From: Clostridiaceae bacterium
Lineage (GTDB): Bacteria > Bacillota > Clostridia > Oscillospirales > Acutalibacteraceae
NCBI GenBank assembly: GCA_016290515.1
Contig: JAEEUJ010000001.1
Coordinates: forward strand, 1-38,001
DNA length: 38,001 bases
Reading direction: 5' to 3'
Position numbers and translations under genes: made by a program. This document shows, piece by piece, positions 18,402 to 31,539 of this stretch; within the stretch, counting starts at the first letter, position 1; each line of letters starts with the position of its first letter. The notes below the pieces were generated by a model that searched no databases, was not told the origin of the DNA, and saw nothing but the letters and a program-made list of their open reading frames with translations.

Positions 18402-18815
18402 TTAGCCGTTGTGGTTCTCAGCATCAGTTGTTGCGATTTTGCAAGTTGCAACATAATTAGTGTTGGTACCATCAAATACAACCTGAGCGTTGTAGTTGTT
18501 GGTAGCACTATCAGCTGAGGGGCACTTCGGAAGTGTGCCGCCGTCAAAGAGTTTTGTGAATGAAGACTCGCCAGATACATCATAAGTTGTAGCTGATGTA
18601 AGAGTGATAGCTTCGCCGCCAGTGCCGCCGGTCATCATGAAGGTCTCCATGTTGCCCTTAATAACTCTCTGGTTGGACTTGCAGGACTTAATTCTTGCGT
18701 TCTTAGTAACTGCGCCGAAGATCGGAACTGCTACTGCTACAAGGATACCAAGGATAACAACAACGATCATTAACTCAACGAGTGTGAAACCCTTTTTGCT
18801 CATAAGTTTTCTCAT
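18402..18815 (-). CDS. pilA: Major type IV pilin (PilA-like) with a class III signal peptide
   Basis: The leader and cleavage site are MRKLMSKKG|FTLVELMIVVVILGILVAVAVPIF, with Phe at +1 and Glu at +5. The protein is small (137 aa). A C-terminal Cys pair (KCPSAD...YVATC) could form a D-region-like loop. The SD is AGGGAG, and the gene has its own promoters and two terminators. Confidence 0.9.
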   Translation of the reverse strand: MRKLMSKKGFTLVELMIVVVILGILVAVAVPIFGAVTKNARIKSCKSNQRVIKGNMETFMMTGGTGGEAITLTSATTYDVSGESSFTKLFDGGTLPKCPSADSATNNYNAQVVFDGTNTNYVATCKIATTDAENHNG

Positions 18816-19096: not shown

Positions 19097-20272
19097 CTAA
19101 CCGACAAGCTCCATTACATAAGCCGTACCCTTAACAGCCTCGGCTGCGATATTTCGGAACAGCTCGTGCCTGCTGAGGAATGAAACGACCTCGGGGGATA
19201 CGCCGTAATATACATCAATAATCCTGTCACCTATTGCCGTTCCGCGCAGCGTGTTGTCACGGAAACTTCTCAAGGTATTGAGAACGCCCTCGCCGACATT
19301 TGAGTTGACCATCAGGAACGAGAACGAACAACCGAAATTCGTTCCGGTCGAGCCGCTGTTGCCGGTAACGTCGCCCGTGCTGAAATTCTTGAGCGAGATA
19401 TACTTGATAACGTTTGCTTCGTCGTCAAGATGACCGTACGTAACTCCGCTGTACTCAAAGTCGGTCGGTTTGGATTCTGTATCATTGTTTGTCTTGAGAT
19501 CCGTGCCGTAGGTGTAGCCTGCGCAGTAGGGGCTCGAGAAATAATCACCCATGGAATTGTTGAGGTTGACGTAGTTCTTGCCAACCGCATTCTTCAGCGC
19601 AAACGAGGTGTGAAGGTCATAGTAGAAATCGTAGCCCGGTCCGCTCTCAACGGTAACCGTTACGCCGTCGTTAAGATACTTATGATCCGTAACAGTCGCA
19701 TCGTCCAGACGGTGGGTGCTTTCGTGACCGTTGTCGTCCTTGCCGAAAGCGTCAACGGATACGGAGTACTTGATATTAACCTCAATCTCATCCGTGAAGC
19801 AGAATCTGTAAGCCGTATGCTGTTTTCCGTTAAGAACGTACATATGTCCGTTGTAAACAAACAGATAGGTGTACTGATAGTTGGAAGCATCAAAGCTCGC
19901 ATTGTTCGTATCTCTGGTTGCGAAATACAGTGCGTGTGAATTCTCGTCCTCGGTGAACGTTCCAAGCTCCGGACAGGACTCAAAGCTCTTGTTCGCATCG
20001 AGTGAACTCTGGTCCTCATAAAGAAGGTCAACGTTTGTTGCCGTAGCAAGCGAGCCCTGTGAAGCGTCGGCAGAATACGCGTCCATAATCGCCTTAACCT
20101 CAGTCTGAACGATGTAGAGGTTCTCGACCATTCTGTACTTTTTCCAGATCGGTCCCATAATTAACGCCAAAAGAGCCGCAACGAGAGCCATGATAGCAAC
20201 CGTAATCAACAACTCGGTTATAGTGAATCCGCGCCTGTCGCTTCTCATTTTGCCGATAGCCTTAAAAAACAC
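19097..20272 (-). CDS. Large type IV pilin-like protein (minor pilin) with a C-terminal C-x-F...LRxFRD...YYxxSP module
   Basis: The start is a GTG, 8 nt after AAGGAGG. The leader is MFFKAIGKMRSDRRG|FTITELLITVAIMALVAALLALI, with Phe at +1 and Glu at +5. The last 78 aa read GCSFSFLMVNS...LRSFRDNTLRGTAIGDRIIDVYYGVSPEVVSFLSRHELFRN. Confidence 0.8.
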   Translation of the reverse strand: MFFKAIGKMRSDRRGFTITELLITVAIMALVAALLALIMGPIWKKYRMVENLYIVQTEVKAIMDAYSADASQGSLATATNVDLLYEDQSSLDANKSFESCPELGTFTEDENSHALYFATRDTNNASFDASNYQYTYLFVYNGHMYVLNGKQHTAYRFCFTDEIEVNIKYSVSVDAFGKDDNGHESTHRLDDATVTDHKYLNDGVTVTVESGPGYDFYYDLHTSFALKNAVGKNYVNLNNSMGDYFSSPYCAGYTYGTDLKTNNDTESKPTDFEYSGVTYGHLDDEANVIKYISLKNFSTGDVTGNSGSTGTNFGCSFSFLMVNSNVGEGVLNTLRSFRDNTLRGTAIGDRIIDVYYGVSPEVVSFLSRHELFRNIAAEAVKGTAYVMELVG

Positions 20273-20343: not shown

Positions 20344-23300
20344 TCAGCTCTGGCAGGCCATCTTGTTAACGCCTGTCAATTCAAGATCCTGACATACGCC
20401 GTCATCGTCGAAGTACAGCGCATAGGTCTTGTCATTGTAAGTCTTGCCGGTATAATTGCCGTCGAGATCCGTTCTCGTAGCGCAGCGGAAGAATCCGTCC
20501 TGCGGCTGCCTTGAATAATACATTACGCAGCGGTCGCCGGTGTCCTGAACGCCGTTGTTGTTGATGTCAACATAACCCATAATGTACCAGATGCCCTGAC
20601 AGTTAACAACCGACCTGAAATTGATGTTTGTCTGGTCGGAAACCTTAACGTGAATCCAGCGTGCAATCGGAAGTCCGTCGCTGCCCGTGAGATCCTTGTC
20701 AAGGAACTTGACGTTTACGTACGAGCCTGCCTCGCCGGTTGCGCCAAGTCTGTTGTACGACTTGGGTGCGCTGTAATCCGAGGGCTTCTTGCCGCTCTGA
20801 TCGCCGACTGCTACCCAGACGTCGTCACAGAAGCAGATATCGTTTACATTCTTGAGTACGGAAACGAAGCCATAATCGTTATAAATACTTCTGCTTACCG
20901 TAGTATAGTCGTAATACTGTTTCTTATAAGTATCGGTGTTGGGCTTGATGCCGAACTTGTCGCACCAGGAGTAGTTCTCGAACTCCTTGCATACCGAGTA
21001 AATCTTGGAATCCTTAACAGATTCATAATTGTAGTACCAGCTCAGCAACGTACCGTTCGCCGTACCCCACATAGCCTGAGGCTTCATGTCGGAGGTCGTA
21101 CCCCAGTTAACCGTGGTACACTCCGTATCCATCAGCGGATGGTAGTTAACGCCGTAGTTCTGGTTGCCTGATTCAATTGAAGGCGAATAGCTCATTTGAG
21201 GAGCCTTGTTCGAGTCGGTCGACATATTAAGGTAGCCCTTATGATACGTCGTGTTCCAGCCGAGTACAGCGCTCGTGCCGGCGCCGTCGCCTATGCTGAC
21301 GCCTCTGTACTGGTCAATTCCGAAGAACTGGTGGAAAATGTTAGTTTCCTTCTTCAAGCTCCAGCCCTTGCCGGACGCAAGGTTACCTGCGTTATCGCTC
21401 TCGGTTCCGTCACCGGTTGCCCTGATATAGACAACGCCGTTGTTAAGAACCTGACCGAGTCTCGTAAGATAAGAATAGTCGTTTGCAACATAGCTGAGTG
21501 AATAGCCCGCTGCAAGCGAAATATTATTGCCGGTAAGATCGTCGTGGAAGCTCTTAACGTCGAGCATCGTGACGTTGTCTCTCAGACCGCCCGAAACGAA
21601 CGAGTGGTTGAAAGCGCCGCCCGAAAGTATGCTCGAACCGATGCCGTCGCCGGGCTTCTTGAAGTAGAAGTCGGAACCGCCCGTCAAGCCCGAAAGACCG
21701 GACATCTTGGGAACGGTCGGGTTGTTGACGTCAATCGCATAAGGCTGCGAAAGGTAACCCATCGTGATATCAACCTCATGGCCTGCAGTTACGTAGTAGT
21801 CCGTGCCTTCCTCGGGAAGAGCCGTTCCGAGATAGCTTCTGGCAGAAAGCGAACCGCTTGTTGCATATTCGCCGCCGCTTCCGTTGGGACCGTAATAAAG
21901 CTTCGCATTGGTAACCGAAACCACTACGCCGTCCTGATGCGGTTTACGGTACTGATACTGATAATCATCGGTCTTTGAGATGATAACGGTATTGTCGCTG
22001 CTCGAAATCTCATTACCGAGTACGATTCTGTTACCGTCCTCGACCTTCAGGCGCTTATAATCGTCGGTATCAACCCATCTGTTATTGATATAAACCTGTG
22101 AAGATCTGATATTCGTGATTCGGATATTTCTCGTAGTACCGCCCGTTCCGTCCTTAAGTTCACCGGTTCTGTAACTGCTGTTTGTCTTGCCGACATCACC
22201 GGGCTTGATAAGCTGAATGTTTTCGGCTAATCCTGTCTCATTTTTCCAGCCGCCGAACAGGTAGAAGCATTCATACTCAACATCATAAGTTACTCTTATG
22301 GCGTACTGATTGTCATAGTCCTTATACTTCGGCGTTTCACTCGCGCCGAAGGGATATCTCGTCGGCTCAGTGCCGTAGTTCAACAGCGAGAACCAGTTTG
22401 CATTCGTGCCGAACAACGTACTAGAAAGTTGTCCGGGAACATCACTCGTGGTTGCGGCGGATCTTGTGTCACCGAACTTACCGGTCGGGTACCATTTGTT
22501 ACCGTCGGTCGCAATACCGAGTGTACCGGTATGAAGCCACATACTGTAGTTGTTGTAAAGCAGCGAACCGATATTCTTCGTTTTCCAGCCCCATGTATCA
22601 ATAACAGCGGGAATAGTTCCGCAGTACAGCGTGTAGGACTGGGTAGGATACAGCTGCTGTCCGAGAACAGATGTCTGATTTGACTGATAGTAATTCGGAT
22701 TTGAAGTATTAATCTGAACCGCACCGACAGACGTAATCGTTATAAGCGAGGGATCGTCGGTATATTCATAGTTAGTTGCGGTCTTGTAACCGTCGATATC
22801 AAGCTCTGAACCGTAGCCCGAGTGGTCAAGCCAGGTGTAAAGCTTACTGTTGGCATCCTGACGGAAGCTGACAAATCCTGTGGTTAAGCCTTTTTCCTTA
22901 TCATAAAGCTCAGTACCGCAGCCTGCATAACGTGCCGAATAGCCGTCGCTGTTTTTAATCGCAAGCGCCCTGCCGACGGTTGTGAAATATGTATCGCTGT
23001 TGGTTACATTGGCTGTGTAGTAGTTACTGGTAATCATTCTGTACTCAAAGCCGATTGTAATAAGTTCGTCGGCAGTGAGCTGGTTAGCACCGTCAACACC
23101 GTTATATTTGAAGTAACCCTGACTCGAACGGAAAATGCTCTTGAACTGAGCCTGAGTTGTATTGGTCTGAGTAATTGTTTCATGGCTGCTGCCGTCGGCC
23201 TGATTATTACCTGTAATGTAATAATATCTGTCATACTGACCGAGAACGTCGCCGCCCCAGTAGTAGTTGCCGGTTGTCTCGTTTCTCCAGAAGCGTCTTA

Positions 23301-24282
23301 CCTGACCTGCGTCGCCGCCCATTACATAATAGCCGTACTGGTTTACGCCGCCGTTTCCGTCGTCGCCTCTGCCCTTTGCAACCCACTCAACGTCGTTCAT
23401 TGCCGATATGAGCGGAGCACCGGACATCTTCTTTGCAACAATGTCCATTTTACCGGTCTTAACGTCAACACCCTCTGTTGCGTAGTAATAATAGTTGCCG
23501 TCGTCGGCCTTTTCGCCTACAAGGATGATTTCGGGAGCGCCGATTTCAACCTTTACCTGATAAAGCATGCCGCCGTTGCCGCAATACTGAATCCAAAGCG
23601 GTGAACGCTCAAAGCTGATAACGTTGTTTGCGCCCTTGAAGGTAAAGATTGCAACCTTACCGCCGTCGCCGTCGTTTGCATAGGCAATATCGTAATAATT
23701 GGTCGAAACCTTTTCCTTGGTTCCGTCATCTTTGGTATTGTAAACCTCGAAATGATATCCGGTAACGGCACTCTTGTTTTCTGCGCTCGCGTGGAACTTG
23801 AAGCCCTTGGGTACTACCGTAATATCCTTTGTGATAAAGTCGTCCGTAAGGTTTGCGGGGAAGCAGACCATTGTGCTGCCCGTTGACGGCGTATAGAACG
23901 AAACATAGGACTTTTCATCATTAAGAGACTCCGAAACCATTGTGCCGTGAACATTACCTACAGAATTGGCTCCGGTATTTGAAAAGTCAATCGTAGTTGA
24001 GCCTGCCGAAAGGGTAATCGGCATATTGGCAACAGCAGTCTCATAGCCTGTGTCGTTAGAGCCGTCGGGGTTAGCAATAAGTCGCTCCATTATGCTGGAT
24101 CTCTCATATGTTTTCCGTGTTATCTGACCGGCAGTTCTCGTATTTCTGAAATACGTCATGAACAGCGGTGTGAAAACCATTATGATAAGAACCAGAAGCG
24201 TCATCGCAACCAAAACTTCTACAAGCGTCATACCGTTTTTTGAACGTAAACGCTTAATTCCGTTTTTGGTCTTATTGTTCAT
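20344..24282 (-). CDS. Giant (1312 aa) protein with a type IV prepilin leader; candidate modular minor pilin / tip adhesin
   Basis: The SD AAGGAGG precedes the ATG. The leader is MNNKTKNGIKRLRSKNG|MTLVEVLVAMTLLVLIIMVFTPLF, with Met at +1 and Glu at +5. The remaining ~1270 aa are rich in Tyr, Gly, Asn and Thr. I recognised no known domain by eye. There are several Cys near the C-terminus. Confidence 0.8.
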   Translation of the reverse strand: MNNKTKNGIKRLRSKNGMTLVEVLVAMTLLVLIIMVFTPLFMTYFRNTRTAGQITRKTYERSSIMERLIANPDGSNDTGYETAVANMPITLSAGSTTIDFSNTGANSVGNVHGTMVSESLNDEKSYVSFYTPSTGSTMVCFPANLTDDFITKDITVVPKGFKFHASAENKSAVTGYHFEVYNTKDDGTKEKVSTNYYDIAYANDGDGGKVAIFTFKGANNVISFERSPLWIQYCGNGGMLYQVKVEIGAPEIILVGEKADDGNYYYYATEGVDVKTGKMDIVAKKMSGAPLISAMNDVEWVAKGRGDDGNGGVNQYGYYVMGGDAGQVRRFWRNETTGNYYWGGDVLGQYDRYYYITGNNQADGSSHETITQTNTTQAQFKSIFRSSQGYFKYNGVDGANQLTADELITIGFEYRMITSNYYTANVTNSDTYFTTVGRALAIKNSDGYSARYAGCGTELYDKEKGLTTGFVSFRQDANSKLYTWLDHSGYGSELDIDGYKTATNYEYTDDPSLITITSVGAVQINTSNPNYYQSNQTSVLGQQLYPTQSYTLYCGTIPAVIDTWGWKTKNIGSLLYNNYSMWLHTGTLGIATDGNKWYPTGKFGDTRSAATTSDVPGQLSSTLFGTNANWFSLLNYGTEPTRYPFGASETPKYKDYDNQYAIRVTYDVEYECFYLFGGWKNETGLAENIQLIKPGDVGKTNSSYRTGELKDGTGGTTRNIRITNIRSSQVYINNRWVDTDDYKRLKVEDGNRIVLGNEISSSDNTVIISKTDDYQYQYRKPHQDGVVVSVTNAKLYYGPNGSGGEYATSGSLSARSYLGTALPEEGTDYYVTAGHEVDITMGYLSQPYAIDVNNPTVPKMSGLSGLTGGSDFYFKKPGDGIGSSILSGGAFNHSFVSGGLRDNVTMLDVKSFHDDLTGNNISLAAGYSLSYVANDYSYLTRLGQVLNNGVVYIRATGDGTESDNAGNLASGKGWSLKKETNIFHQFFGIDQYRGVSIGDGAGTSAVLGWNTTYHKGYLNMSTDSNKAPQMSYSPSIESGNQNYGVNYHPLMDTECTTVNWGTTSDMKPQAMWGTANGTLLSWYYNYESVKDSKIYSVCKEFENYSWCDKFGIKPNTDTYKKQYYDYTTVSRSIYNDYGFVSVLKNVNDICFCDDVWVAVGDQSGKKPSDYSAPKSYNRLGATGEAGSYVNVKFLDKDLTGSDGLPIARWIHVKVSDQTNINFRSVVNCQGIWYIMGYVDINNNGVQDTGDRCVMYYSRQPQDGFFRCATRTDLDGNYTGKTYNDKTYALYFDDDGVCQDLELTGVNKMACQS

Positions 24283-24315: not shown

Positions 24316-26064
24316 TTAACCTAACACCCACGTAAGCGACGAACCGTCTGTCGGATCCGGGGGAACAAGTGATTTGAATGTGTCTGCTAAATAAGTGAAC
24401 GCTCCGCTGTATGGATCGCGTTCTATCTTTCTCATTGCGTTATAGGTGATTACTCCGTCGTCATTGCCGATAACGTATGTTGTCGGTGTCTTGTCGGTTG
24501 TGGAGTAGTACATCGCCATAACCTCGGTAAATCTTGAAAGAACGTTGTCGGAATAGCGCTTGGTTGCTACTGAATAGTCGATGAAATACTTGAAGAGGTC
24601 TATTCCGTATCCTTCCTTGGTGCCGACCGACTGAGGAAGATTGTCATCAAAATAATATGTATCTCCGGCATTGAAAGCCTTGTAACGGTAGTTGCCTACG
24701 TTGGGAATCTGGATGTTAACGAAAACGTTACCGCCGAAGAAAATCTTTCCGCACTTGCCGTAACCGCCCTGTGAAGGCATTGTTACGCCCGAACTTGAAA
24801 TAGTCGGTGCAAGCGTGTAAATTGCCTGATGTACCGGGTCGGTAACCGTTGAGGTCTCGGGATTCGGCGTACCGATAACGACCGTGCTCCAGCAGTAGTT
24901 GCCGGCGATTGCCTGATACATTGAGGTCATATTCTGACCGAACAGTCTGCCCAACAGTGACGAGGACGATCTCGTGAAACCGTAAACATAAATCTCAACG
25001 TCGCCGTTAAGAACTATGGTGTCACCTCTGAGATACATTACATTGAAGCAAGTCTTTGACGGTGTAACGTCAATGTTCGTGTTAATGAAAATGTTCTGCT
25101 TTCCGATGAAGGAAACCATATTGCTCTGGTTCGGCTTAAACTTAATCGTTCCTGCGGTGGGCTGATTCATTATCATATTACCTGTGGTATATGCCATAAG
25201 AATCGGAACGGTCTGCTGGTTGAGCGTAATCGGATATGAGTTTTCGATACCGATATACTTTCCGATGAACGGAATGTTGTTGAACAGGCTTATCTTAATC
25301 ATAAGCGTTGTTCCGGTGCTGTATGTACCGAGAACGTTGAAGTTGTCGTTCTTCGCAATCGGAACCTGAACGCTCTTTTCGGTGCCGTTGTCGTCATATT
25401 TAATTGTCTTTTTCTGATTTGTAACGCCGCCGTCGATTATGCCGTCGTCGTTATAGAACTTGCCGAGCGCCTGAACAGGCTCGGAGAGATACGCCTTTTT
25501 GGTGGCTCCAACAACGCCTGCGCCCGCTCTGCCGACGTGTCCGTGCGCCTCGATAATTCTCTGGCTTTCCTTGATTTCTACCGGATACGACGTGACGCCG
25601 GAAGCTGAAGTTGTATCCTCCTCAAGAAGATTGGCAACGCTGATGTCAACCGCACTTGTAACGGTAACATCATAGTAGCCGATAATCTGATCGTCGGTGT
25701 ACGATCCGATGTTGCCGCCCTGAACATACTTGTAGTGGTTGTTGTCGGGCTCGCTGCGGTCGAAAACGAGGTAAACCTGATTTGACTGCATAGATGCGCC
25801 TTCTGAATTTGTACTTGAAATAAGCGTGTTTGCAGCCGCATTGCTTCCGCTTGCACTGACAGCAAGCTGGTACGCATACGATGCGGATTCAACGCCCGCC
25901 TGTGCGAGATATTCGGCTTTTTTCCTGTCTGAAAGGAATCTTACCGAACGAAGAGACGTTACGGAATACATATACATCGCCGTTCCCATAAGGGAAAGTA
26001 CGAACAGAAGGAATACGACGGAAATTATTGCAAATCCGCCGTTCTGCTTCAATTTGGTTTTCAT
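24316..26064 (-). CDS. PilX/GspK-like large pseudopilin with a PilX_N-type N-terminus and no Glu at +5
   Basis: The likely start is Met21 of the track ORF (MKTKLKQNGG|FAIISVVFLLFVLSLMGTAMY), preceded by GAAAGGGTGG. It contains KKAEYLAQAGVESA, which is typical of PilX N-terminal domains. The 20-codon upstream extension to 26124 overlaps a terminator-like hairpin and has no SD. The start coordinate is approximate, to within a few nt. Confidence 0.7.
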   Translation of the reverse strand: MKTKLKQNGGFAIISVVFLLFVLSLMGTAMYMYSVTSLRSVRFLSDRKKAEYLAQAGVESASYAYQLAVSASGSNAAANTLISSTNSEGASMQSNQVYLVFDRSEPDNNHYKYVQGGNIGSYTDDQIIGYYDVTVTSAVDISVANLLEEDTTSASGVTSYPVEIKESQRIIEAHGHVGRAGAGVVGATKKAYLSEPVQALGKFYNDDGIIDGGVTNQKKTIKYDDNGTEKSVQVPIAKNDNFNVLGTYSTGTTLMIKISLFNNIPFIGKYIGIENSYPITLNQQTVPILMAYTTGNMIMNQPTAGTIKFKPNQSNMVSFIGKQNIFINTNIDVTPSKTCFNVMYLRGDTIVLNGDVEIYVYGFTRSSSSLLGRLFGQNMTSMYQAIAGNYCWSTVVIGTPNPETSTVTDPVHQAIYTLAPTISSSGVTMPSQGGYGKCGKIFFGGNVFVNIQIPNVGNYRYKAFNAGDTYYFDDNLPQSVGTKEGYGIDLFKYFIDYSVATKRYSDNVLSRFTEVMAMYYSTTDKTPTTYVIGNDDGVITYNAMRKIERDPYSGAFTYLADTFKSLVPPDPTDGSSLTWVLG

Positions 26065-26273
26065 ACAGACCACCCTTTCGCCGTCGAAAAGAAAACAGTG
26101 TGAAATAATTGTCGGAAAATACATGTATGCAAAATCGGAAAACGCCGATTTTGCGGCGATTTTCAGTGTAAAAAAGCTAATTCTATATATACTTATTATA
26201 CGGTGAACATATTGTAACAGTTTGTTGAGAAAATGTATGCATTATGAACAAATTGTGAACTAAGCGTAAATAA

Positions 26274-27962
26274 TTATACGATAACACGGGCGATTTCCTC
26301 GAGTGAGGTTCTGCCTTGCATTACCTTATAAATACCCTCGTCCTTCAGGGTATGCATACCCTGCTTGATAGCAAGCTCCTTAACCTCGGCAACAGTAGCG
26401 CGGTCAAGGATGAGACGCTTCATTTCCTCGGAAACCGTAAGGAATTCGAAAACGGCTTCTCTGCCCTTATAACCCGTATGGTTGCAGGTTATACAGCCCT
26501 TAGCTCTGTAGAGTGTGAATTCCTCGTCGGGATACTCCTCGGTATTGAGGTCGGGAATAATCTTGAGAAGGTCTTCCCTGGAAATTTTATATTCCTCCTT
26601 GCACTTGGGGCACAGACGTCTGACAAGACGCTGAGCAAGCACGCCGACAAGCGAGGATGCCGTCAGGAAGGGCTCAACGCCCATTTCGTCAAGACGGGTA
26701 ACCGCACCGGGTGCGTCGTTTGTATGCAGGGTGGAAAGAACCATATGTCCTGTAAGAGCCGCTTCGATAGCGATTTTAGCAGTCTCAGCGTCACGGATTT
26801 CACCGACCATGACGATATCGGGGTCGGAACGGAGAACCGAACGAAGAGCAGCTGCGAAGGTCATACCTGCACGGTTGTTCATCTGAACCTGGTTAATACC
26901 GGACATACGGCGCTCAACGGGGTCCTCAAGTGTAATTGTATTGGTTTCAAGACGGCTTATCTCGTCAAGAACGGCGTAAAGCGTCGTCGACTTACCCGAA
27001 CCGGTAGGTCCGGTAACGAGAACGAAGCCGTAAGGCATATGAATAGCCTTCTGGAATCTGTCAAACTGTCTCTCTGAGAAGTGTAAGTCCTTAAGCTTGA
27101 CAACGCCCTGGCTTCTTTCAAGAAGACGGAGAACTATTTTCTCACCGAAAACAGTGGGCATTGTAGCAATACGCAAGTCAAGTACGCGGTCCTCATATCT
27201 TACGGTAGCACGGCCGTCCTGAGGAATACGCTTTTCGGCGATGTCCATACCGCCGATAACCTTGACACGGGAAACTATGGACGGGAAAAGTCTGATGTTG
27301 TTCTGCAAAATTTCCTGCAAAACGCCGTCGATTCTGAAACGGACTCTCATGTACTTCTCAAGAGCCTCTATATGTACGTCCGATGCGCCCATCTTGATAG
27401 CGTTGTTGATAACCTGATTAACCAGCATAACCGCCGGTTTATCGTCAAGGTCAAGCTCCTCGCTGCCGTTTTGCTCTATGAGTGCGTCATCTTCGTCGTC
27501 AAACGCTTCCATGCTGCTCATATTTGAGAAATTCTCAATAGCGGCAGCAAGCTCCATATCGGGAACGACAACCGGGCATATCTCCATACCTGTCATAAGG
27601 CGGAGATTGTCGATGGTGATAATGTCGTTGGGATTCTTCATCGCAACGTACAGTGTCTTTTCGTCCTTGTAAAGAGGAAGAACGTTGTTGCGCAAAGCCA
27701 TCTCGGGAGTTATGTAATTTGCAACCTCGGCGTTGAAGCCTATTTCGTTAATGGACACATACTTATAGCCTGTCTTTTTAGCAAGGACCTTGGCTATTTC
27801 GTCCTCAGTACAGTAACCCAACTGAGTAAGTATGGTACCCAAGAGGCTTTTACTTGTCTTTTGTATTTCCAGAGCTTCGGCAAGCTGATCCTCTGTGATA
27901 ATGCCCGCTTCGACAAGTCTGTAACCCAGACTGCCCGGAATTACTACGTTTGAATTCAACAT
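26274..27962 (-). CDS. pilB: Type IV pilus assembly (extension) ATPase PilB / GspE family
   Basis: It has an N-terminal T2SSE_N-like domain. Walker A is GPTGSGKSTT, Walker B is DPDIVMVGEIRD and the His box is GHMVLSTLHTN. A tetracysteine motif is present (CPKC...CITC). Confidence 0.93.
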   Translation of the reverse strand: MLNSNVVIPGSLGYRLVEAGIITEDQLAEALEIQKTSKSLLGTILTQLGYCTEDEIAKVLAKKTGYKYVSINEIGFNAEVANYITPEMALRNNVLPLYKDEKTLYVAMKNPNDIITIDNLRLMTGMEICPVVVPDMELAAAIENFSNMSSMEAFDDEDDALIEQNGSEELDLDDKPAVMLVNQVINNAIKMGASDVHIEALEKYMRVRFRIDGVLQEILQNNIRLFPSIVSRVKVIGGMDIAEKRIPQDGRATVRYEDRVLDLRIATMPTVFGEKIVLRLLERSQGVVKLKDLHFSERQFDRFQKAIHMPYGFVLVTGPTGSGKSTTLYAVLDEISRLETNTITLEDPVERRMSGINQVQMNNRAGMTFAAALRSVLRSDPDIVMVGEIRDAETAKIAIEAALTGHMVLSTLHTNDAPGAVTRLDEMGVEPFLTASSLVGVLAQRLVRRLCPKCKEEYKISREDLLKIIPDLNTEEYPDEEFTLYRAKGCITCNHTGYKGREAVFEFLTVSEEMKRLILDRATVAEVKELAIKQGMHTLKDEGIYKVMQGRTSLEEIARVIV

Positions 27963-28002
27963 CTATATAATCTCCCTATAGTGGTTTGTGCTGATAAATC
28001 AA

Positions 28003-28593
28003 TTATTTTGAAAAGAACACAATCACGATTTCGGCGGTCTTTTCTGTACTGGTTCCGCCGGTCATTCTGATGGTATCAATTCTCTTGATTTTAGTATCGC
28101 TGGTAATATCTCTGCAGAAGCTCATAATGTCTCTGAAGTCGCCGCTGATTTTCAAATTAACAACCATCTGGTTAACAAATCCGTTGTTAGACTCTTCACC
28201 GAAAGTAATCTCGCTGAGATTGCAATTGTGCGCCTCAACATTGTTCTCCAGAGCTATCATCATTTCGAGCTGATCGAAGCCTTCGTCGGAAATCATCTCG
28301 TCATAAGCTTCCTTCTGCGCGGAATATTCACCGCTTTTTGCCTGAAGTGCTTTAAGATTGGCTATCTTGTTCTGATTTTCAACTATCTGAGCCTTTACCG
28401 TATCGATTCTGGTACGGGTTTCTTCGATTTTACCGTTATTGTAAACAATCAAAGCGATAAGAGCTATACAGGCGATAGCGATTATAGCGATTACTATTCT
28501 GACGTCGTCAAAAATCTTGGCGGCGGAAAACTGCTTCTTTTCCTTAGCTTCGTTTGTAACTTCTCTTTTTTTAATTACATCGCTCAATGCCAT
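28003..28593 (-). CDS. pilO: PilO-like pilus alignment protein
   Basis: 196 aa with a short cytoplasmic N-terminus, one TM helix (IVIAIIAIACIALIALIV), a coiled coil and a small C-terminal globular part. It sits directly after the pilM and pilN genes. Confidence 0.6.
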   Translation of the reverse strand: MALSDVIKKREVTNEAKEKKQFSAAKIFDDVRIVIAIIAIACIALIALIVYNNGKIEETRTRIDTVKAQIVENQNKIANLKALQAKSGEYSAQKEAYDEMISDEGFDQLEMMIALENNVEAHNCNLSEITFGEESNNGFVNQMVVNLKISGDFRDIMSFCRDITSDTKIKRIDTIRMTGGTSTEKTAEIVIVFFSK

Positions 28594-28605
28594 AATCCTA
28601 CCTCC

Positions 28606-29298
28606 TTATTCAGCGCTCGCAGTGGTGGCCTCAGCGGTAACTGCAGTTGTTGCAACCTCGCCGCTCTCATTGGTAACAGCTTCGCCGTTTTCGTTGGTAA
28701 CGGTTACATACTGCGGAGCCTGCTCAGCAGGTGCAATAGCGTTCTGAGTGCTCAGAACAAGCGTAAAGTTAACTGACTTGTTGTGATTCGAGGAACTCTG
28801 TCTCTGAATGTTTGTAATCTCAACGCCCTTAACGATTTCCTGCATTTCCTCAGTCTTGAAGAGTGCCTCATAGTCCTTCATATCCTGATAATCCTGAACG
28901 GTACAGTTGAGCGTGCAAACACCGCTGTTAAACCATTCTTCGATATCAATCTCATTAATCTGAACGTAATCGGGAGTCTTATTGACGACGGTTGTAAAGA
29001 AATCAACAGACTCGCCGTCAGACGGTAAAATGCTCGAAATCATCTGTCTGGAAGAAATCAGGCTGTCGTAAATGCCTTGGTATTCCTGCAATGCCGGGAA
29101 TTCGCTTTCCAGTCTGGAGTTCTCTCTCTCCAGCTTTTTAAGCTTTGATTCGAGCACAGCGTTCTTGATGGCAAAACCGCCGTAAACAATAAACAGACAA
29201 ATAAGAATAACTGCTGCGAACCTGGAGACTATGTCAACCTTATCTCTGCTTTGCAGATGACGCCTGTAACTGTCAGGCAATAAACTTACTTTGAACAC
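28606..29298 (-). CDS. pilN: PilN-like pilus alignment protein
   Basis: The start is a GTG, 8 nt after GGAGG, and it abuts the pilM stop. The N-terminal KVSLLPDSYRR matches the INLLP-type PilM-binding motif. One TM helix and a coiled coil follow. The C-terminal tail is rich in Thr, Ala and Glu. Confidence 0.68.
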   Translation of the reverse strand: MFKVSLLPDSYRRHLQSRDKVDIVSRFAAVILICLFIVYGGFAIKNAVLESKLKKLERENSRLESEFPALQEYQGIYDSLISSRQMISSILPSDGESVDFFTTVVNKTPDYVQINEIDIEEWFNSGVCTLNCTVQDYQDMKDYEALFKTEEMQEIVKGVEITNIQRQSSSNHNKSVNFTLVLSTQNAIAPAEQAPQYVTVTNENGEAVTNESGEVATTAVTAEATTASAE

Positions 29299-30288
29299 TT
29301 ACTTTACCTCCATTGCCGCGATTGCAAGGCCTATGCAGCCTGCAAATTCGTTAATAACCTTCTGATCAAGTCCGAAATTGTTTGCCTTATAGAAATCGGG
29401 AACAATAACCGGAATTGTTGAAACTATGTCCTTCATCTTGTTTGCAAGTTCGTCATTCTCGGACAGAGTAGACAGGAGGAAGATTTTTTCAATAGGCGAA
29501 TCGCTGTTCTGCATAGAATAGTAGCTTACCGAAGACGAGGTTTCCTGCGCAAGCATAGCTCCTACCTCTTCGATATCCTCTGCTCTCTTGGCAGCGTCGT
29601 CATAGGAGCCTGCGAACAGTCTTTCGACATTCTCCTCAACTCTTTCGGGAATCTGAATTGAACGGACCATTGAAATCTCGTTGCCTTTGATAATAAGGAA
29701 GTTAAGCAAATCCTCGGTTATGTTAAGAACCGCATATTTCTCTTCGCCGACAACGCTGGACTGAAGACCTCTGCACAGCGAAAGAACGCTTGCATCTACA
29801 TCAACAACCAGAAACTTTGATGCGGAAAGAGTGTTTATATACTGCTCTATCATATTCCTTCTCGCAGCTACAAGCATAACATTTGTTACTGCCTGATCCT
29901 CGTCATTTTTACCTTCGCTGGCAATAACATAGTCCAATTCCAGTTCCTGTACGGGAATCGGAATGAATTCCTGAGCCTGCAAGAGAACCATATTGCGAAG
30001 CTTATCTTCGGCAACCTGAGGAAACGTTGCATATCTCATAACGACGTTTTCGTTATTAAAGCCGAGAACGATTTTTACCGACTTGAAACCGCCGTTAGTG
30101 ATAAGCTCGGTAAGAGCAATGTTGAATTTGTCGGCATCTCTTATAAAACCTTCTTCAATTACTCCCTCGGGAAGCGGAATCTTACCGCAGGCGAGTACCG
30201 AGTACTCACCGTTTATACGGCTTACCTCGACCGCTCTTATTTCCCTGGAGCTGACCTCAAGTCCGATTCTGCTTTTAATCTTTGCCAT
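29299..30288 (-). CDS. pilM: PilM, actin-like ATPase of the T4P alignment complex
   Basis: 329 aa with an N-terminal GLEVSSREIRAVEV phosphate-1-like motif. Its size and position immediately upstream of the pilN-like gene support the call. Confidence 0.82.
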   Translation of the reverse strand: MAKIKSRIGLEVSSREIRAVEVSRINGEYSVLACGKIPLPEGVIEEGFIRDADKFNIALTELITNGGFKSVKIVLGFNNENVVMRYATFPQVAEDKLRNMVLLQAQEFIPIPVQELELDYVIASEGKNDEDQAVTNVMLVAARRNMIEQYINTLSASKFLVVDVDASVLSLCRGLQSSVVGEEKYAVLNITEDLLNFLIIKGNEISMVRSIQIPERVEENVERLFAGSYDDAAKRAEDIEEVGAMLAQETSSSVSYYSMQNSDSPIEKIFLLSTLSENDELANKMKDIVSTIPVIVPDFYKANNFGLDQKVINEFAGCIGLAIAAMEVK

Positions 30289-30305
30289 AATAATCTTCTC
30301 CTGTA

Positions 30306-31511
30306 TTAATAGCCTTCAACGTTTGTGGATGCCGTGAATATCGGCAGATAAAGAGCTATGATCATCGCACCGACAATACCGCCGATGCCGATAAGCGCGA
30401 TAGGCTCAATCATAGCCTTAAGGTTTCTGGAAAGCGTCTCAACATCCTCTTCGTAAAACTCCGCGACCTTATCAAGCAACTCGGGAAGCGTACCTGCCTC
30501 CTCACCGATGGCTATCATACCGGTAACCATGGGCGGGAAAAGTCCGCTCTTATCAAGCGAATCGGATATTGATTTACCTTCCTCGATATCGCTGATAGCG
30601 TCCTCAACTGCTTTTGCAATAAGGTCCGAACCCGAGGTGGGGCCTGCGGACTTAAGAGCTTCAACCGCCGTAACACCGCCGGCAAGAAGAGTTGCCAGAG
30701 TACGGCAGAAACGCGCGATAGTCTGCTTGGTCATAAGCTCGCCTATAAGCGGAGCGTGAAGCTTGTGCTGCTCCCAGAGTTTGTGCATCGGGGGGCTCTT
30801 GGCAATGAAGTAAACTACCGTAACAAAAGCCGCAATTGTTCCGAACCAGATGTACCAACGGCTTCTCAAAAAGCCGGAAGCGTCGAAGATGAACTGTGTC
30901 AGTCCGTTAAGCTCAGTAGTTTCGGGAATCATATTCTTGAATATCGGTACCATGAATGCAAGCATCGCATGCAAAAGAACAAGCGCGAAAATACCGATTG
31001 ATCTCGGGTAGGAAATGGCTGACTTGATGTTGTCCTGCAATGCCTTCTGCTTCTGAAGCTGGGTAGCAAGGGAGTTCAGCGTCTGTTCCAGAATACCGCC
31101 GACCTCGCCGGCTGCAATCATGGCAACGAACAGACCGTTGAAAATCTTGGGAAACTGCCCGAAAGCATCCGAAAGGGGCATACCGCCTTCAACGTCGTCC
31201 TTGATCTTATCTATCGCAGAAGCAAGCGAAGCGTTGGTGGTCTGCTTTCCCAGAGTGTCAAGCGCTCTTGTAATCGGAACGCCGGCAGACATCATGGTAG
31301 CCATCTGTCTTGCGAAAACGGCAACGTCCTCGATTTTAACCTTCTTGCCGCCCGCCTTCTTCTTTTCGTTTATCTGTTTTTCTTTAATGTCTGTAACAAT
31401 AATGCCGGCTTCACGGAGTTTATCCATTGCCTCGGACGAACTGCCCGCTACAACTTCGCCGTGAACGTTCTGGCCCTGTTTGTTCAGACCGTCATATGTA
31501 AAGGATGCCAA
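30306..31511 (-). CDS. pilC: PilC / GspF-family inner-membrane platform protein
   Basis: 401 aa with two T2SSF-type repeats, each a cytoplasmic helical domain followed by TM segments. The N-terminus FTYDGLNKQGQNVHGEVVAGSSSEAMDKLREAGI is typical of PilC. The start is a TTG, 8 nt after GGGAG. Confidence 0.9.
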   Translation of the reverse strand: MASFTYDGLNKQGQNVHGEVVAGSSSEAMDKLREAGIIVTDIKEKQINEKKKAGGKKVKIEDVAVFARQMATMMSAGVPITRALDTLGKQTTNASLASAIDKIKDDVEGGMPLSDAFGQFPKIFNGLFVAMIAAGEVGGILEQTLNSLATQLQKQKALQDNIKSAISYPRSIGIFALVLLHAMLAFMVPIFKNMIPETTELNGLTQFIFDASGFLRSRWYIWFGTIAAFVTVVYFIAKSPPMHKLWEQHKLHAPLIGELMTKQTIARFCRTLATLLAGGVTAVEALKSAGPTSGSDLIAKAVEDAISDIEEGKSISDSLDKSGLFPPMVTGMIAIGEEAGTLPELLDKVAEFYEEDVETLSRNLKAMIEPIALIGIGGIVGAMIIALYLPIFTASTNVEGY

Positions 31512-31539
31512 GCTTTTTGCTCCCTTCTCTTATAATCTC

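What the first reader, a model, noticed from the sequence alone, without database searches (positions are those of the whole stretch)
19100..19333. Pilin-like protein ending in a C-x-F...LRxFRDxxL...YYxxSP module normally seen as a stand-alone C-terminal domain of secreted proteins
The 391-aa protein has a canonical prepilin leader (RRG|FTITELL). Its last 78 residues read GCSFSFLMVNS...VLNTLRSFRDNTLRGTAIGDRIIDVYYGVSPEVVSFLSRHELFRNIAAEAV.

From memory, this matches a C-terminal module with the pattern CFIATAAYGS...LRxFRDxxL...G....YY..SP..A..I...... I believe it is catalogued as a CFI-box C-terminal domain. It is found at the end of diverse secreted or surface proteins, and its function is unknown.

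I did not expect to find a pilin N-terminal sorting signal combined with a putative C-terminal sorting or docking module in one protein. The C-terminal module could mediate interaction with a partner or with the envelope.
Basis: partly seen in the sequence, partly recalled or inferred. Interest (0 to 1): 0.7.

Follow-up and report, generated by a model that had tools for sequence, protein, structure and literature searches.

The report
Minor pilin carrying a CFI-box module
A type IV pilus subunit from an uncultured gut Clostridium ends in a small, independently folding four-helix domain (the "CFI-box"). That domain is common on thousands of unrelated proteins but has never been studied, so this is a new example of a "modular pilin", not a new kind of system.

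Summary
Window 19097-20272 (-) encodes a 391-aa prepilin with leader MFFKAIGKMRSDRRG|FTITE. Its last 77 residues (19100-19330) are a divergent but full-length CFI-box-CTERM domain. The NCBIfam model NF041770 scores 44.3 bits against a cutoff of 40. A profile built only from non-pilin CFI domains scores 63 bits and aligns Cys315.

The tail has many relatives outside pilins: 5,860 clusters at 50% identity.

With a deep alignment AlphaFold2 predicts a compact four-helix module (pLDDT 88.5). It follows a low-confidence Gly/Ser/Thr/Asn-rich linker. It has no transmembrane helix or basic tail. No relative was found in Pfam, the PDB or BFVD, and no paper mentions the domain.

The gene is a fixed part of a type IV pilus operon in 18 gut-Clostridia genomes. 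It always follows a PilX/GspK-like pilin that lacks Glu5 and a giant pilin of about 1,130-1,350 aa.

CFI-boxes also occur internally (including inside a GspH-like pseudopilin), in tandem, and on nuclease-like proteins that lack signal peptides. The tail is therefore a folded module, not a cleaved sorting signal.

Best reading: a modular minor pilin that displays a generic interaction module at the pilus tip. What the module binds, and what its invariant Cys does, remain unknown.

The parts
19097..20272 (-). Whole gene: 391-aa minor type IV pilin with a C-terminal CFI-box module (the stop codon is 19097-19099)
   Evidence: ORF list. The identical protein sits on NCBI contig JAEEGF012334279.1. 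There are 30 full-length orthologue clusters.
20228..20272 (-). Class III (prepilin) leader peptide, residues 1-15, MFFKAIGKMRSDRRG, ending in Gly
   Evidence: TIGR02532 and PF07963 hits. G15, F16, T17 and E20 are invariant in 20 orthologues.
20057..20227 (-). Mature N-terminus and the long alpha-1 helix (residues 16-72), with Phe+1 and Glu+5
   Evidence: AF2 predicts a helix over residues 18-72. This is the most conserved region, with mean pairwise identity 0.59.
19376..20056 (-). Pilin beta-sheet body (residues 73-299). It includes the near-invariant Cys100 in the SCPELG motif.
   Evidence: AF2 predicts the strands, with pLDDT about 60-88 in 10-residue blocks. The best Foldseek PDB hit is the XcpGHIJK pseudopilus model 9a1f_S, probability 0.94 but TM only 0.2-0.3. 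C100 is at least 90% conserved.
19331..19375 (-). Linker rich in Gly, Ser, Thr and Asn (residues 300-314, GDVTGNSGSTGTNFG)
   Evidence: pLDDT is below 50 over residues 300-327 in the full-length model. This is the least conserved region, with identity 0.35.
19100..19330 (-). CFI-box module (residues 315-391): Cys box CSFSFLMV, the LRSFRDNTL helix, G348, the YYGVSP helix and an amphipathic last helix
   Evidence: NF041770 scores 44.3 bits. The non-pilin profile scores 63 bits over residues 315-388. The AF2 tail-only model has pLDDT 88.5 and pTM 0.72, with helices at 4-8, 15-30, 34-56 and 58-78 of the 79-aa construct.
19328..19330 (-). Codon of Cys315, the family-invariant Cys that opens the domain
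   Evidence: Invariant in A1, A2, A3 and A5. A Cys lies 16-22 residues upstream of RxFRD at 169 of the 181 motif sites scanned.
19247..19273 (-). LRSFRDNTL motif (residues 334-342)
   Evidence: Motif scan. R335, F337, R338, D339 and L342 are invariant in the orthologues.
19193..19210 (-). YYGVSP motif (residues 355-360)
   Evidence: Motif scan. Y355, Y356, S359 and P360 are invariant in the orthologues.
20344..24282 (-). Giant pilin (1,312 aa; leader ...SKNG|MTLVE). It is always the gene immediately upstream.
   Evidence: N_methyl and PilV-type N-terminal hits. Syntenic in all related loci that span the position.
24316..26124 (-). PilX/GspK-like non-canonical pilin (about 582-602 aa; ...NGG|FAIIS, no Glu5). 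It is the first gene of the minor-pilin triad. The true start is probably the internal Met at about 26064.
   Evidence: Translation. Syntenic in the related loci that span it. No family hit.
18402..18815 (-). Major pilin (137 aa; KKG|FTLVE), immediately downstream
   Evidence: N_methyl 34 bits, with partial ComGC and GspG matches. Syntenic.
26274..32640 (-). Pilus machinery: PilB (26274-27962), PilO (28003-28593), a PilN-position ORF (28606-29298), PilM (29299-30288), PilC (30306-31511) and PilT (31540-32640)
   Evidence: Pfam T2SSE, MshEN, PilO, PilM_2 and T2SSF hits.

Best explanation
The gene encodes a modular minor type IV pilin. A pilin module comes first: a class III signal peptide, the alpha-1 helix and a minor-pseudopilin-like beta body. 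A low-complexity linker of about 15-25 residues joins it to a complete but divergent CFI-box domain that folds on its own as a small four-helix module.

The protein is one of a fixed trio of minor pilins. The other two are a PilX/GspK-like subunit without Glu5 and a giant pilin of 1,130-1,350 aa. By analogy with the HIJK and Streptococcus sanguinis PilABC tip complexes, this trio should prime assembly and cap the pilus.

The CFI-box would then be displayed at the tip as an interaction module. The residues conserved in the pilin tail are the same ones conserved in thousands of non-pilin CFI-boxes. What it binds should therefore be generic, such as another CFI-box (self-association) or a common ligand, and not a pilus-specific partner. 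It is not a cleaved sorting signal.

Shown here:
- the pilin identity;
- homology to the CFI-box over the whole domain;
- the predicted autonomous fold;
- the conserved synteny;
- the absence of sorting-signal features.

Inferred, not shown:
- tip location;
- outward display;
- the binding function;
- a possible Cys100-Cys315 staple to the pilin body.
For: Pilin signal.

CFI-box homology: NF041770 above cutoff. An independent non-pilin profile scores 63 bits and includes the Cys. All family-invariant columns are present.

Autonomous fold: the tail-only AF2 model has pLDDT 88.5 and pTM 0.72. In the full-length model the preceding 300-327 segment has pLDDT below 50.

Selection: the tail is more conserved than the body (0.54 against 0.48), and the linker is least conserved (0.35). 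In distant loci the whole pilin is only 21-28% identical to the window protein, while the matched tail stretches are 31-48% identical.

Synteny: the order PilB, PilX-like, giant pilin, CFI pilin, major pilin (and YfhO where the contig extends far enough) holds across the related loci from 18 species genomes. L017 carries two copies of the triad, each with its own CFI pilin.

Independent fusion: P0076 is a GspH-like pseudopilin with a canonical CFIATAAYGS box inserted internally (81 bits). It sits in a separate cluster of T2SSF, a major pilin and minor pilins.

Module character of the CFI-box: it is attached to PKD, TSP3, CarboxypepD_reg, S8, trypsin, reprolysin and LRR passengers. It occurs in tandem (P0044, P0051) and internally (P0097, P0125).

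Precedent: modular pilins and three-pilin tip complexes are described in PMC8179133 and PMC9934059.
Against: There is no direct evidence for tip location or for any binding activity. Nothing is known about the function of any CFI-box: four literature searches found nothing.

The full-length AF2 model is mediocre (pLDDT 65). Coordinates and PAE were not available, so I cannot say whether the tail is free or packed on the body.

The structural match of the body to a pseudopilin is weak (TM 0.2-0.3).

I could not test whether the host genomes encode any other CFI-box protein that could serve as a partner.

The invariant Cys is unexplained by a pure binding role.
Confidence: 0.55

Rival explanations
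1. Structural clamp. The tail faces inward. It packs on its own pilin body, possibly through a Cys100-Cys315 disulfide analogous to the D-region loop of classical pilins, or on the giant or PilX-like pilins. Its job would be to stabilise or chaperone the tip complex, not to bind anything external.
For: The three minor pilins are always inherited together and are duplicated together in L017.

The Cys pattern fits a staple. Many close orthologues have exactly two ectodomain Cys, C99/100 and the box Cys. Subfamilies that lack the body CPELG Cys usually have a second Cys in the last tail helix. P0076 has only the box Cys plus one C-terminal Cys.

In S. sanguinis one minor pilin stabilises another (PMC9934059).
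Against: The conserved tail residues are the family-wide ones, found on proteins that have no pilin partners. Single-Cys CFI proteins exist, such as P0117 and P0151. The linker is poorly conserved and predicted to be disordered. The hosts are gut anaerobes, where extracellular disulfides are uncertain.
Confidence: 0.17
2. Membrane-surface association module. The CFI-box sits at the membrane interface. It would hold the minor pilin or priming complex at the membrane, or re-attach the tip to an envelope.
For: About 13-16 of 38 canonical CFI representatives run straight into a transmembrane helix plus a basic cluster. Distant pilin-type tails end in a hydrophobic helix (FLKPVYKAVLIPVSYVCGFIARL, H17 up to 2.1). 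Zinc-ribbon and nuclease-linked members end in cationic amphipathic helices. The invariant residues Arg and Tyr are typical of membrane interfaces (established knowledge).
Against: The last helix of the window clade is amphipathic with about zero net charge and a maximum 17-residue hydropathy of 0.96. None of its 27 members reaches 1.8. The largest CFI subgroup among the hits is strongly acidic, with median net charge -4. AF2 gives a compact soluble-looking bundle. A second membrane anchor would hinder extraction of a pilin into a fibre.
Confidence: 0.12
3. True C-terminal sorting or processing signal. The tail is recognised by a dedicated enzyme and removed or transferred at or near the invariant Cys, as with LPXTG, PEP-CTERM or MYXO-CTERM signals.
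For: The model's name ends in '-CTERM'. The domain is usually within 0-15 residues of the C-terminus. It has an invariant Cys. A subset is followed by a transmembrane helix plus a basic tail.
Against: - The window tail has no transmembrane helix or basic cluster.
- The motif lies about 60 residues upstream of the transmembrane helix where one exists.
- There are internal copies, including one in the middle of pilin P0076, where cleavage would sever the subunit.
- There are tandem copies and extra helix repeats.
- Full-length copies occur on GIY-YIG and PLD proteins without signal peptides.
- No sortase-like gene is conserved in the pilus loci or next to three stand-alone CFI genes.
Confidence: 0.07
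4. Chance resemblance, or a lineage-specific pilin C-terminus with no real relation to the CFI-box.
For: The NCBIfam alignment skips the first 15 profile positions. Several orthologues score below the 40-bit cutoff, at 31-39 bits.
Against: Two independent profiles give E values of 1e-11 to 1e-21. All invariant columns are shared, including the Cys. The similarity grades continuously through P0045 (profile 1-64 of 69) and P0030 (3-64 of 69).
Confidence: 0.01

Closest known systems
Modular type IV pilins, e.g. Streptococcus sanguinis PilB (vWA module) and PilC (lectin module) (PMC8179133, PMC9934059)
   Same: Both have an N-terminal pilin module joined by a short linker to a C-terminal module that also occurs outside pilus biology. 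Both are minor pilins of a monoderm type IV pilus. Both belong to a set of three minor pilins in which one lacks Glu5 and two are bulky. Tip display is predicted for both.
   Different: The grafted module here is a 77-residue all-helical CFI-box of unknown function, not a known adhesion domain. It has no Pfam entry, so I expect a domain-architecture survey like the published one would have missed it (inference). Binding has not been shown.
NCBIfam NF041770 CFI-box-CTERM domain proteins
   Same: The tail is homologous over the whole domain: the Cys, LRxFRDxxL, G, YYxxSP and the last helix. It sits at the C-terminus after a low-complexity linker.
   Different: The eponymous CFIATAAYG box is replaced by CSFSFLMVNS with a 1-3 residue insertion. 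The score is only just above the cutoff. The N-terminal export signal is a prepilin signal instead of a Sec signal. There is no following transmembrane helix.
T4bP minor pilins CofB and TcpB (as discussed in PMC8179133)
   Same: A minor pilin whose extra C-terminal domains hang on a flexible linker and act at the pilus tip.
   Different: The CofB modules are beta domains that trimerise and bind a secreted partner. Here the module is helical, and its oligomeric state and partner are unknown.
GspH/I/J/K (FimU-PilVWX) tip complex of type IV filaments
   Same: A set of minor pilins encoded together and capped by a Glu5-less GspK/PilX-like subunit. The best structural hit of the body is the Xcp pseudopilus model.
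   Different: There are only three minor pilins, two of them greatly enlarged. Which of H, I or J the CFI pilin corresponds to could not be assigned, because only the N-terminal helix matches the family models.
Tripartite C-terminal sorting signals (LPXTG/sortase, PEP-CTERM/exosortase, MYXO-CTERM and similar)
   Same: C-terminal position, a conserved signature with an invariant Cys, and the '-CTERM' name.
   Different: The tail has no transmembrane helix or basic cluster, it is a folded 70-residue domain, no cognate enzyme is linked, and the domain also occurs internally, in tandem and on apparently cytoplasmic proteins.

Membership tests
NCBIfam NF041770 CFI-box-CTERM domain | Whole-protein score at or above the curated cutoff of 40 bits | tested here: met
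   44.3 bits for the protein and 47.9 bits for the tail alone. The margin is small, and orthologues range from 31 to 48 bits.
NCBIfam NF041770 CFI-box-CTERM domain | Invariant Cys opening the domain, 16-22 residues before RxFRD | tested here: met
   Cys315 lies 20 residues before R335. It aligns to the profile Cys in the non-pilin profile and in A3.
NCBIfam NF041770 CFI-box-CTERM domain | The eponymous CFIATAA(Y/F)G box sequence | tested here: not met
   The window has CSFSFLMVNS. The NCBIfam alignment starts only at profile position 16. Many accepted members also lack the literal box, for example CPxxxxYGE variants scoring 76-88 bits, so this is a subfamily trait and not a family requirement.
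NCBIfam NF041770 CFI-box-CTERM domain | LRxFRDxxL, an invariant Gly and the YYxxSP motifs at family spacing | tested here: met
   LRSFRDNTL, G348 and YYGVSP.
NCBIfam NF041770 CFI-box-CTERM domain | Position at the C-terminus of the protein | tested here: met
   The domain ends 1-3 residues from the C-terminus.
Type IV pilin (class III signal peptide; TIGR02532 / PF07963) | Short basic leader ending in Gly, hydrophobic +1 residue, Glu+5, and about 20 hydrophobic residues | tested here: met
   Both models score above cutoff. The motif RRG|FTITELLITVAIMALVAALLALIMG is conserved in the orthologues.
Type IV pilin (class III signal peptide; TIGR02532 / PF07963) | Encoded with type IV pilus assembly machinery | tested here: met
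   PilB, PilC, PilM, PilO and PilT lie in the same minus-strand gene run, and this arrangement is conserved in the related loci.
Type IV pilin (class III signal peptide; TIGR02532 / PF07963) | Processed by a prepilin peptidase (PilD, peptidase A24) | not testable with these tools
   No A24 gene was found among the window ORFs I annotated. One lies downstream of YfhO in syntenic locus L004. Cleavage itself needs an experiment.
Type IV pilin (class III signal peptide; TIGR02532 / PF07963) | Pilin fold (alpha-1 helix packed on an antiparallel beta-sheet) | tested here: inconclusive
   AF2 predicts a long alpha-1 helix plus beta strands, but at mean pLDDT 65. The top Foldseek hit is a pseudopilus subunit with probability 0.94 but TM only 0.20-0.32.
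Modular pilins (Raynaud et al. 2021, PMC8179133) | A pilin module plus an extra domain that is not specific to pilus biology, joined by a linker | tested here: met
   The CFI-box is found in more than 5,000 clusters, mostly non-pilin. The linker at 300-314 is low-complexity and low-confidence.
Modular pilins (Raynaud et al. 2021, PMC8179133) | The extra module has a direct role in a pilus-mediated function | not testable with these tools
   This needs binding or adhesion assays. No function is known for any CFI-box.
Tripartite C-terminal sorting signals (sortase or exosortase type) | Signature motif immediately followed by a transmembrane helix and a basic cluster | tested here: not met
   The tail ends ...GTAYVMELVG. 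Its maximum 17-residue hydropathy is 0.96 and its net charge is about 0.
Tripartite C-terminal sorting signals (sortase or exosortase type) | A dedicated processing enzyme that co-occurs or is linked | tested here: inconclusive
   None was found among the neighbours in the window or related loci, or next to three stand-alone CFI genes. A genome-wide co-occurrence test was not possible.

The most novel reading that the evidence does not exclude
The CFI-box may be a homotypic or heterotypic docking handle, a helical counterpart of the cohesin-dockerin pair.

Members with a transmembrane helix, and small proteins made only of tandem CFI-boxes, would act as anchors or scaffolds. Members without a transmembrane helix would dock onto them.

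A CFI-box on a tip pilin would then let a retractile pilus do one of two things. It could pick up or display CFI-tagged secreted proteins. Or it could make tip-to-tip contacts between pili that pull cells together.

Two independent insertions of the domain into pilins (the gut-Clostridia family and P0076) would reflect a real functional link between CFI-boxes and type IV filaments.
Probability: 0.1. Interest if true: 0.75.

Novelty: new member of a known kind. Interest (0 to 1): 0.4.

Why it matters
The CFI-box is a large, widespread domain family with 5,860 clusters at 50% identity. It has no Pfam entry, no solved or structurally similar fold, and no literature. Finding it grafted twice, independently, onto pilus subunits places it in a setting where location, partners and the role of its invariant Cys can be tested experimentally.

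For pilus biology, the finding defines a conserved minor-pilin trio in uncultured gut Oscillospirales-type Clostridia: a Glu5-less cap, a giant pilin and the CFI pilin. It also adds an architecture that I expect earlier surveys based on domain signatures would have missed (inference).

It also corrects the implied meaning of the '-CTERM' name. The evidence points to a folded module, not a sorting signal.

Tried and rejected
**Literature.** Searches for 'CFI-box', 'CFIATAAYGS', 'CFIATAA' and 'NF041770' found nothing.

**Solved structures, by sequence.** Profiles A2 and A5 gave only noise. The hits were SteA at E=1.1 and the designed four-helix heme protein m4D2 at E=0.002. I judged the latter to be helical Glu/Lys composition.

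**Fold search.** The confident tail model found nothing in the PDB (best hit EsxA, E=2) or in BFVD.

**Pfam.** The tail has no family even at E<=10. No shared family covers the tail in 61 non-pilin members.

**Failed or limited tool runs.**
- The genome-contig scan with the broad alignment A3 failed because no stretch was conserved enough. The A2 scan then used a pattern specific to pilin tails, so it cannot say whether the same genomes hold other CFI proteins.
- Aligning 98 full-length non-pilin proteins failed. A subset of 61 worked.
- Cluster look-ups and the canonical-profile search gave almost no taxonomy. The only names were Dehalococcoidia and Deltaproteobacteria, and most hits were short metagenome fragments.

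**Neighbourhoods.** Three stand-alone CFI genes on long contigs share no recurring neighbour.

**Ideas considered and dropped.**
- Hedgehog- or intein-like autoprocessing at Gly|Cys. The domain is 70 residues and all-helical, and it sits inside pilin P0076, where cleavage would cut the subunit in two.
- A lipobox-type lipidation site. The Cys is not next to a signal peptide.
- A gene-fusion or frameshift artefact. The ORF is continuous and conserved in 18 species genomes.
Full report
**1. What is in the sequence**

Window 19097-20272 on the minus strand is a 391-aa ORF with a GTG start.

The N-terminus, MFFKAIGKMRSDRRG|FTITELLITVAIMALVAALLALIMG, is a class III (prepilin) signal.
- TIGR02532 scores 24.0 bits (cutoff 16.3) and Pfam N_methyl scores 26.9 bits (cutoff 21.2).
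- Gly-1, Phe+1 and Glu+5 are invariant in 20 aligned orthologues.

The tail hits NCBIfam NF041770 'CFI_box_CTERM' at 44.3 bits, or 47.9 bits for the tail alone (cutoff 40, E about 1e-11). That alignment covers only profile positions 16-62 of 69 and so skips the eponymous box. Pfam has nothing for the tail even at E<=10. The motif occurs only once in the window.

**2. Is the tail really a CFI-box, over its whole length?**

An exhaustive HMMER search with a profile of 14 pilin tails found 5,860 representative clusters (50% identity) at E<=1e-3. Among the best 150:
- Twenty-eight are further prepilins of 257-510 aa. All but P0076 (section 4) carry the tail at the C-terminus.
- The rest are unrelated proteins of 58-2,483 aa, about half with Sec-like N-termini.

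A Cys lies 16-22 residues upstream of RxFRD at 169 of the 181 motif sites scanned. In an alignment of 77 diverse domains the invariant columns are that Cys, R, D and G. The near-invariant columns are R, F, L, Y, Y and P. The window tail has all of them.

To avoid circularity I built a profile from 112 non-pilin domains only. It aligns window residues 315-388 to profile positions 3-73 of 77 at 63 bits, with Cys315 on the family Cys.

More distant pilin-type members bridge the gap to the NCBIfam model. P0045 matches positions 1-64 of 69 at 42 bits, and P0030 matches 3-64 of 69 at 38.7 bits.

The tail is therefore a complete CFI-box in which CFIATAAYGS has drifted to CSFSFLMVNS with a short insertion. 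The pilin subfamily straddles NCBI's cutoff at 31-48 bits. This explains why one orthologue (P0003, 81% identical) is publicly named 'CFI-box-CTERM domain-containing protein', while another (P0021) is called 'type II secretion system protein'.

**3. Anatomy**

AlphaFold2 on the full protein with 20 orthologues gave mean pLDDT 65.
- It predicts alpha-1 over residues 18-72 and a beta body with block pLDDT about 60-88.
- Residues 300-327 fall below pLDDT 50.
- Three C-terminal helices follow.

The best PDB fold match for this model is a subunit of the XcpGHIJK pseudopilus model (9a1f_S). The probability is 0.94 but TM is only 0.20-0.32. This fits a minor pseudopilin but does not say which one.

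The tail alone, predicted with the 77-sequence alignment, gave a confident compact model with pLDDT 88.5 and pTM 0.72. It has a short helix on the Cys box, then helices carrying LRxFRD, YYxxSP and the C-terminal segment.

Foldseek found nothing similar in the PDB or BFVD. Sequence profiles found no solved relative.

Across the orthologues, mean pairwise identity is 0.59 for the leader and alpha-1, 0.48 for the body, 0.35 for the linker and 0.54 for the tail.

In distant syntenic loci the whole pilin is only 21-28% identical to the window protein, while the matched tail stretches are 31-48% identical. The tail is under strong constraint, and no tail-less orthologue was seen.

**4. Context**

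The gene sits in a minus-strand type IV pilus operon. In order of transcription the genes are:
- a LysM plus secretin-N-domain protein;
- PilT;
- PilC;
- PilM;
- an ORF in the PilN position;
- PilO;
- PilB;
- a roughly 600-aa protein with a PilX/GspK-type N-terminus (NGG|FAIIS, no Glu5);
- a 1,312-aa pilin (KNG|MTLVE);
- the CFI pilin;
- a 137-aa major pilin;
- YfhO.

A scan of one genome per species found 18 loci. All are MAGs of gut Clostridia, named Oscillospiraceae, Ruminococcaceae, Ca. Fimenecus or Anaerovoracaceae, from goat, rabbit and human samples.

tblastn shows the same order in the loci that span those genes: PilB, PilX-like, giant pilin, CFI pilin, major pilin, then YfhO where the contig extends. 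In L017 the minor-pilin genes occur twice, in convergent orientation, each set with its own CFI pilin. The three minor pilins therefore behave as one module.

A six-frame search of all these loci found no second CFI tail.

Separately, P0076 is a 257-aa GspH-like pseudopilin with a canonical CFIATAAYGS box inserted internally at residues 79-146 (81 bits). It lies in an unrelated cluster of T2SSF, a major pilin and minor pilins. This is a second, independent pilin-CFI fusion.

**5. What the wider family says about the tail**

The passengers are diverse extracellular domains: PKD, TSP3, CarboxypepD_reg, DUF3108-like, Lcl_C, subtilase, trypsin, reprolysin and LRR. But the family is broader than that:
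- About 13-16 of 38 canonical representatives continue into a transmembrane helix plus a basic cluster. The window clade does not (maximum 17-residue hydropathy 0.96, net charge about 0).
- Some proteins carry two whole domains in tandem with no passenger (P0044, P0051), extra repeats of the YYxxSP helix (P0063, P0071, P0078), or an internal copy (P0097, P0125, P0076).
- Full-length copies at 77-78 bits sit on a GIY-YIG protein and a PLD/NucT-like protein that lack signal peptides, and on zinc-ribbon proteins.
- Three stand-alone CFI genes on long contigs share no neighbour.

Together these points argue that the CFI-box is an autonomous folded module used in many settings, not a tripartite sorting signal.

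**6. Mechanism**

*Shown:*
- It is a prepilin.
- It carries a complete CFI-box.
- The box is predicted to fold alone behind a low-complexity linker.
- It is a fixed member of a three-gene minor-pilin set.
- It lacks sorting-signal features.

*Inferred from established knowledge:* Minor pilins that include a Glu5-less cap form the complex that primes assembly and ends up at the tip. In S. sanguinis one Glu5-less pilin plus two modular pilins form such a tip complex and present their extra modules (PMC8179133, PMC9934059). By analogy the CFI module is presented at the pilus tip.

Because the tail conserves the same residues as thousands of non-pilin CFI-boxes, its activity should be the generic one of the family. 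That activity could be self-association or binding of a common ligand. I put the whole statement at 0.55; the identity and architecture part alone is above 0.9.

*An untested structural detail:* Many close orthologues have exactly two ectodomain Cys, C99/100 (in SCPELG) and the box Cys. Subfamilies that lack the body Cys usually have a second Cys in the last tail helix. The box Cys may therefore be disulfide-stapled, here Cys100-Cys315, which would resemble the D-region loop of classical pilins. Single-Cys CFI proteins exist, so this cannot be the universal role of the Cys.

*Rivals:*
- an inward-facing structural clamp (0.17);
- a membrane-surface association module (0.12);
- a true sorting or processing signal (0.07);
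- chance resemblance (0.01).

**7. Comparison with what is known, and novelty**

The protein works like a modular pilin and meets that class's architectural definition. Whether the module has a direct pilus-related function could not be tested.

It is a member of NF041770 by score and by all conserved positions except the literal CFIATAA box.

It fails the defining transmembrane-plus-basic feature of sortase- or exosortase-type signals.

No paper mentions the domain, and no structure exists. Public annotation already flags the domain on an orthologue. I found no paper on the domain at all, so its presence on pilins, the conserved trio and the independent internal insertion in P0076 appear to be unreported.

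I rate it a new member of a known kind, with moderate interest (0.4). Its main value is as an experimental entry point to an uncharacterised, very widespread domain.

**8. Limits**
- No multimer prediction was possible.
- Only the top 150 of the 5,860 family hits could be examined.

Noticed in passing
window 20344-24282 (-): A 1,312-aa protein with a canonical prepilin leader (KNG|MTLVE) and no recognisable domain in its roughly 1,270-aa remainder. Homologous giant pilins of 1,131-1,354 aa sit at the same position in the related loci examined.
   Followed up: partly
window 24316-26124 (-): A roughly 600-aa protein with a PilX/GspK-type N-terminus (NGG|FAIISVVFLLFVLSLMG, no Glu5) and no family hit. 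The ORF's first ATG is probably 20 codons too early; the likely start is MKTKLKQ at about 26064.
   Followed up: partly
window 32730-34496 (-): A 588-aa protein with a LysM domain followed by Secretin_N/STN-type domains but no secretin C-domain. It heads a pilus operon in what looks like a Firmicute, given that RNase Y and YmdB lie nearby. It may be a peptidoglycan-spanning or gating component.
   Followed up: no
window 15051-17990 (-); also L002, L004, L007-L010, L012-L014, L016, L019-L022: A YfhO-family membrane protein (PF09586, E=1e-140) follows the major pilin gene in the window and in 14 related loci. It is a candidate pilin-modifying glycosyltransferase.
   Followed up: partly
L017 1361-15553: An Oscillospiraceae MAG (SVOB01000001) carries two convergent copies of the minor-pilin set: PilX-like, giant pilin and CFI pilin. 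The CFI pilins are 467 aa and 413 aa.
   Followed up: yes
L024 1834-4480: P0076 is a GspH-like pseudopilin with a canonical CFIATAAYGS CFI-box inserted internally at residues 79-146. It lies in a compact cluster of T2SSF, a 113-aa pilin and three further minor pilins. This is an independent pilin-CFI fusion.
   Followed up: yes
P0134, P0140, P0209 (proteins): Full-length CFI-box domains (77-78 bits for P0134 and P0140) sit at the C-terminus of GIY-YIG, PLD/NucT-like and zinc-ribbon proteins that lack signal peptides. Some use a CY(V/I)ATxVYGS box variant with extra Cys. The family is therefore not restricted to secreted proteins.
   Followed up: partly
P0044, P0051, P0063, P0071, P0078: Some small secreted proteins consist only of two tandem CFI-boxes. 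Others have one CFI-box followed by two extra repeats of the YYxxSP helix unit. These suggest a scaffold- or repeat-like use of the module.
   Followed up: no
window 10271-14881 (-): A 1,536-aa surface protein with 14 BspA-type LRR_5 repeat blocks and three C-terminal SLH domains, preceded by a PNPD-repeat linker.
   Followed up: no
window 19973-19975 (Cys100) and 19328-19330 (Cys315): The pilin-type CFI proteins show a complementary Cys pattern. The box Cys nearly always has one potential partner, either in the pilin body (SCPELG) or in the last tail helix. This suggests a disulfide or a shared ligand site.
   Followed up: partly
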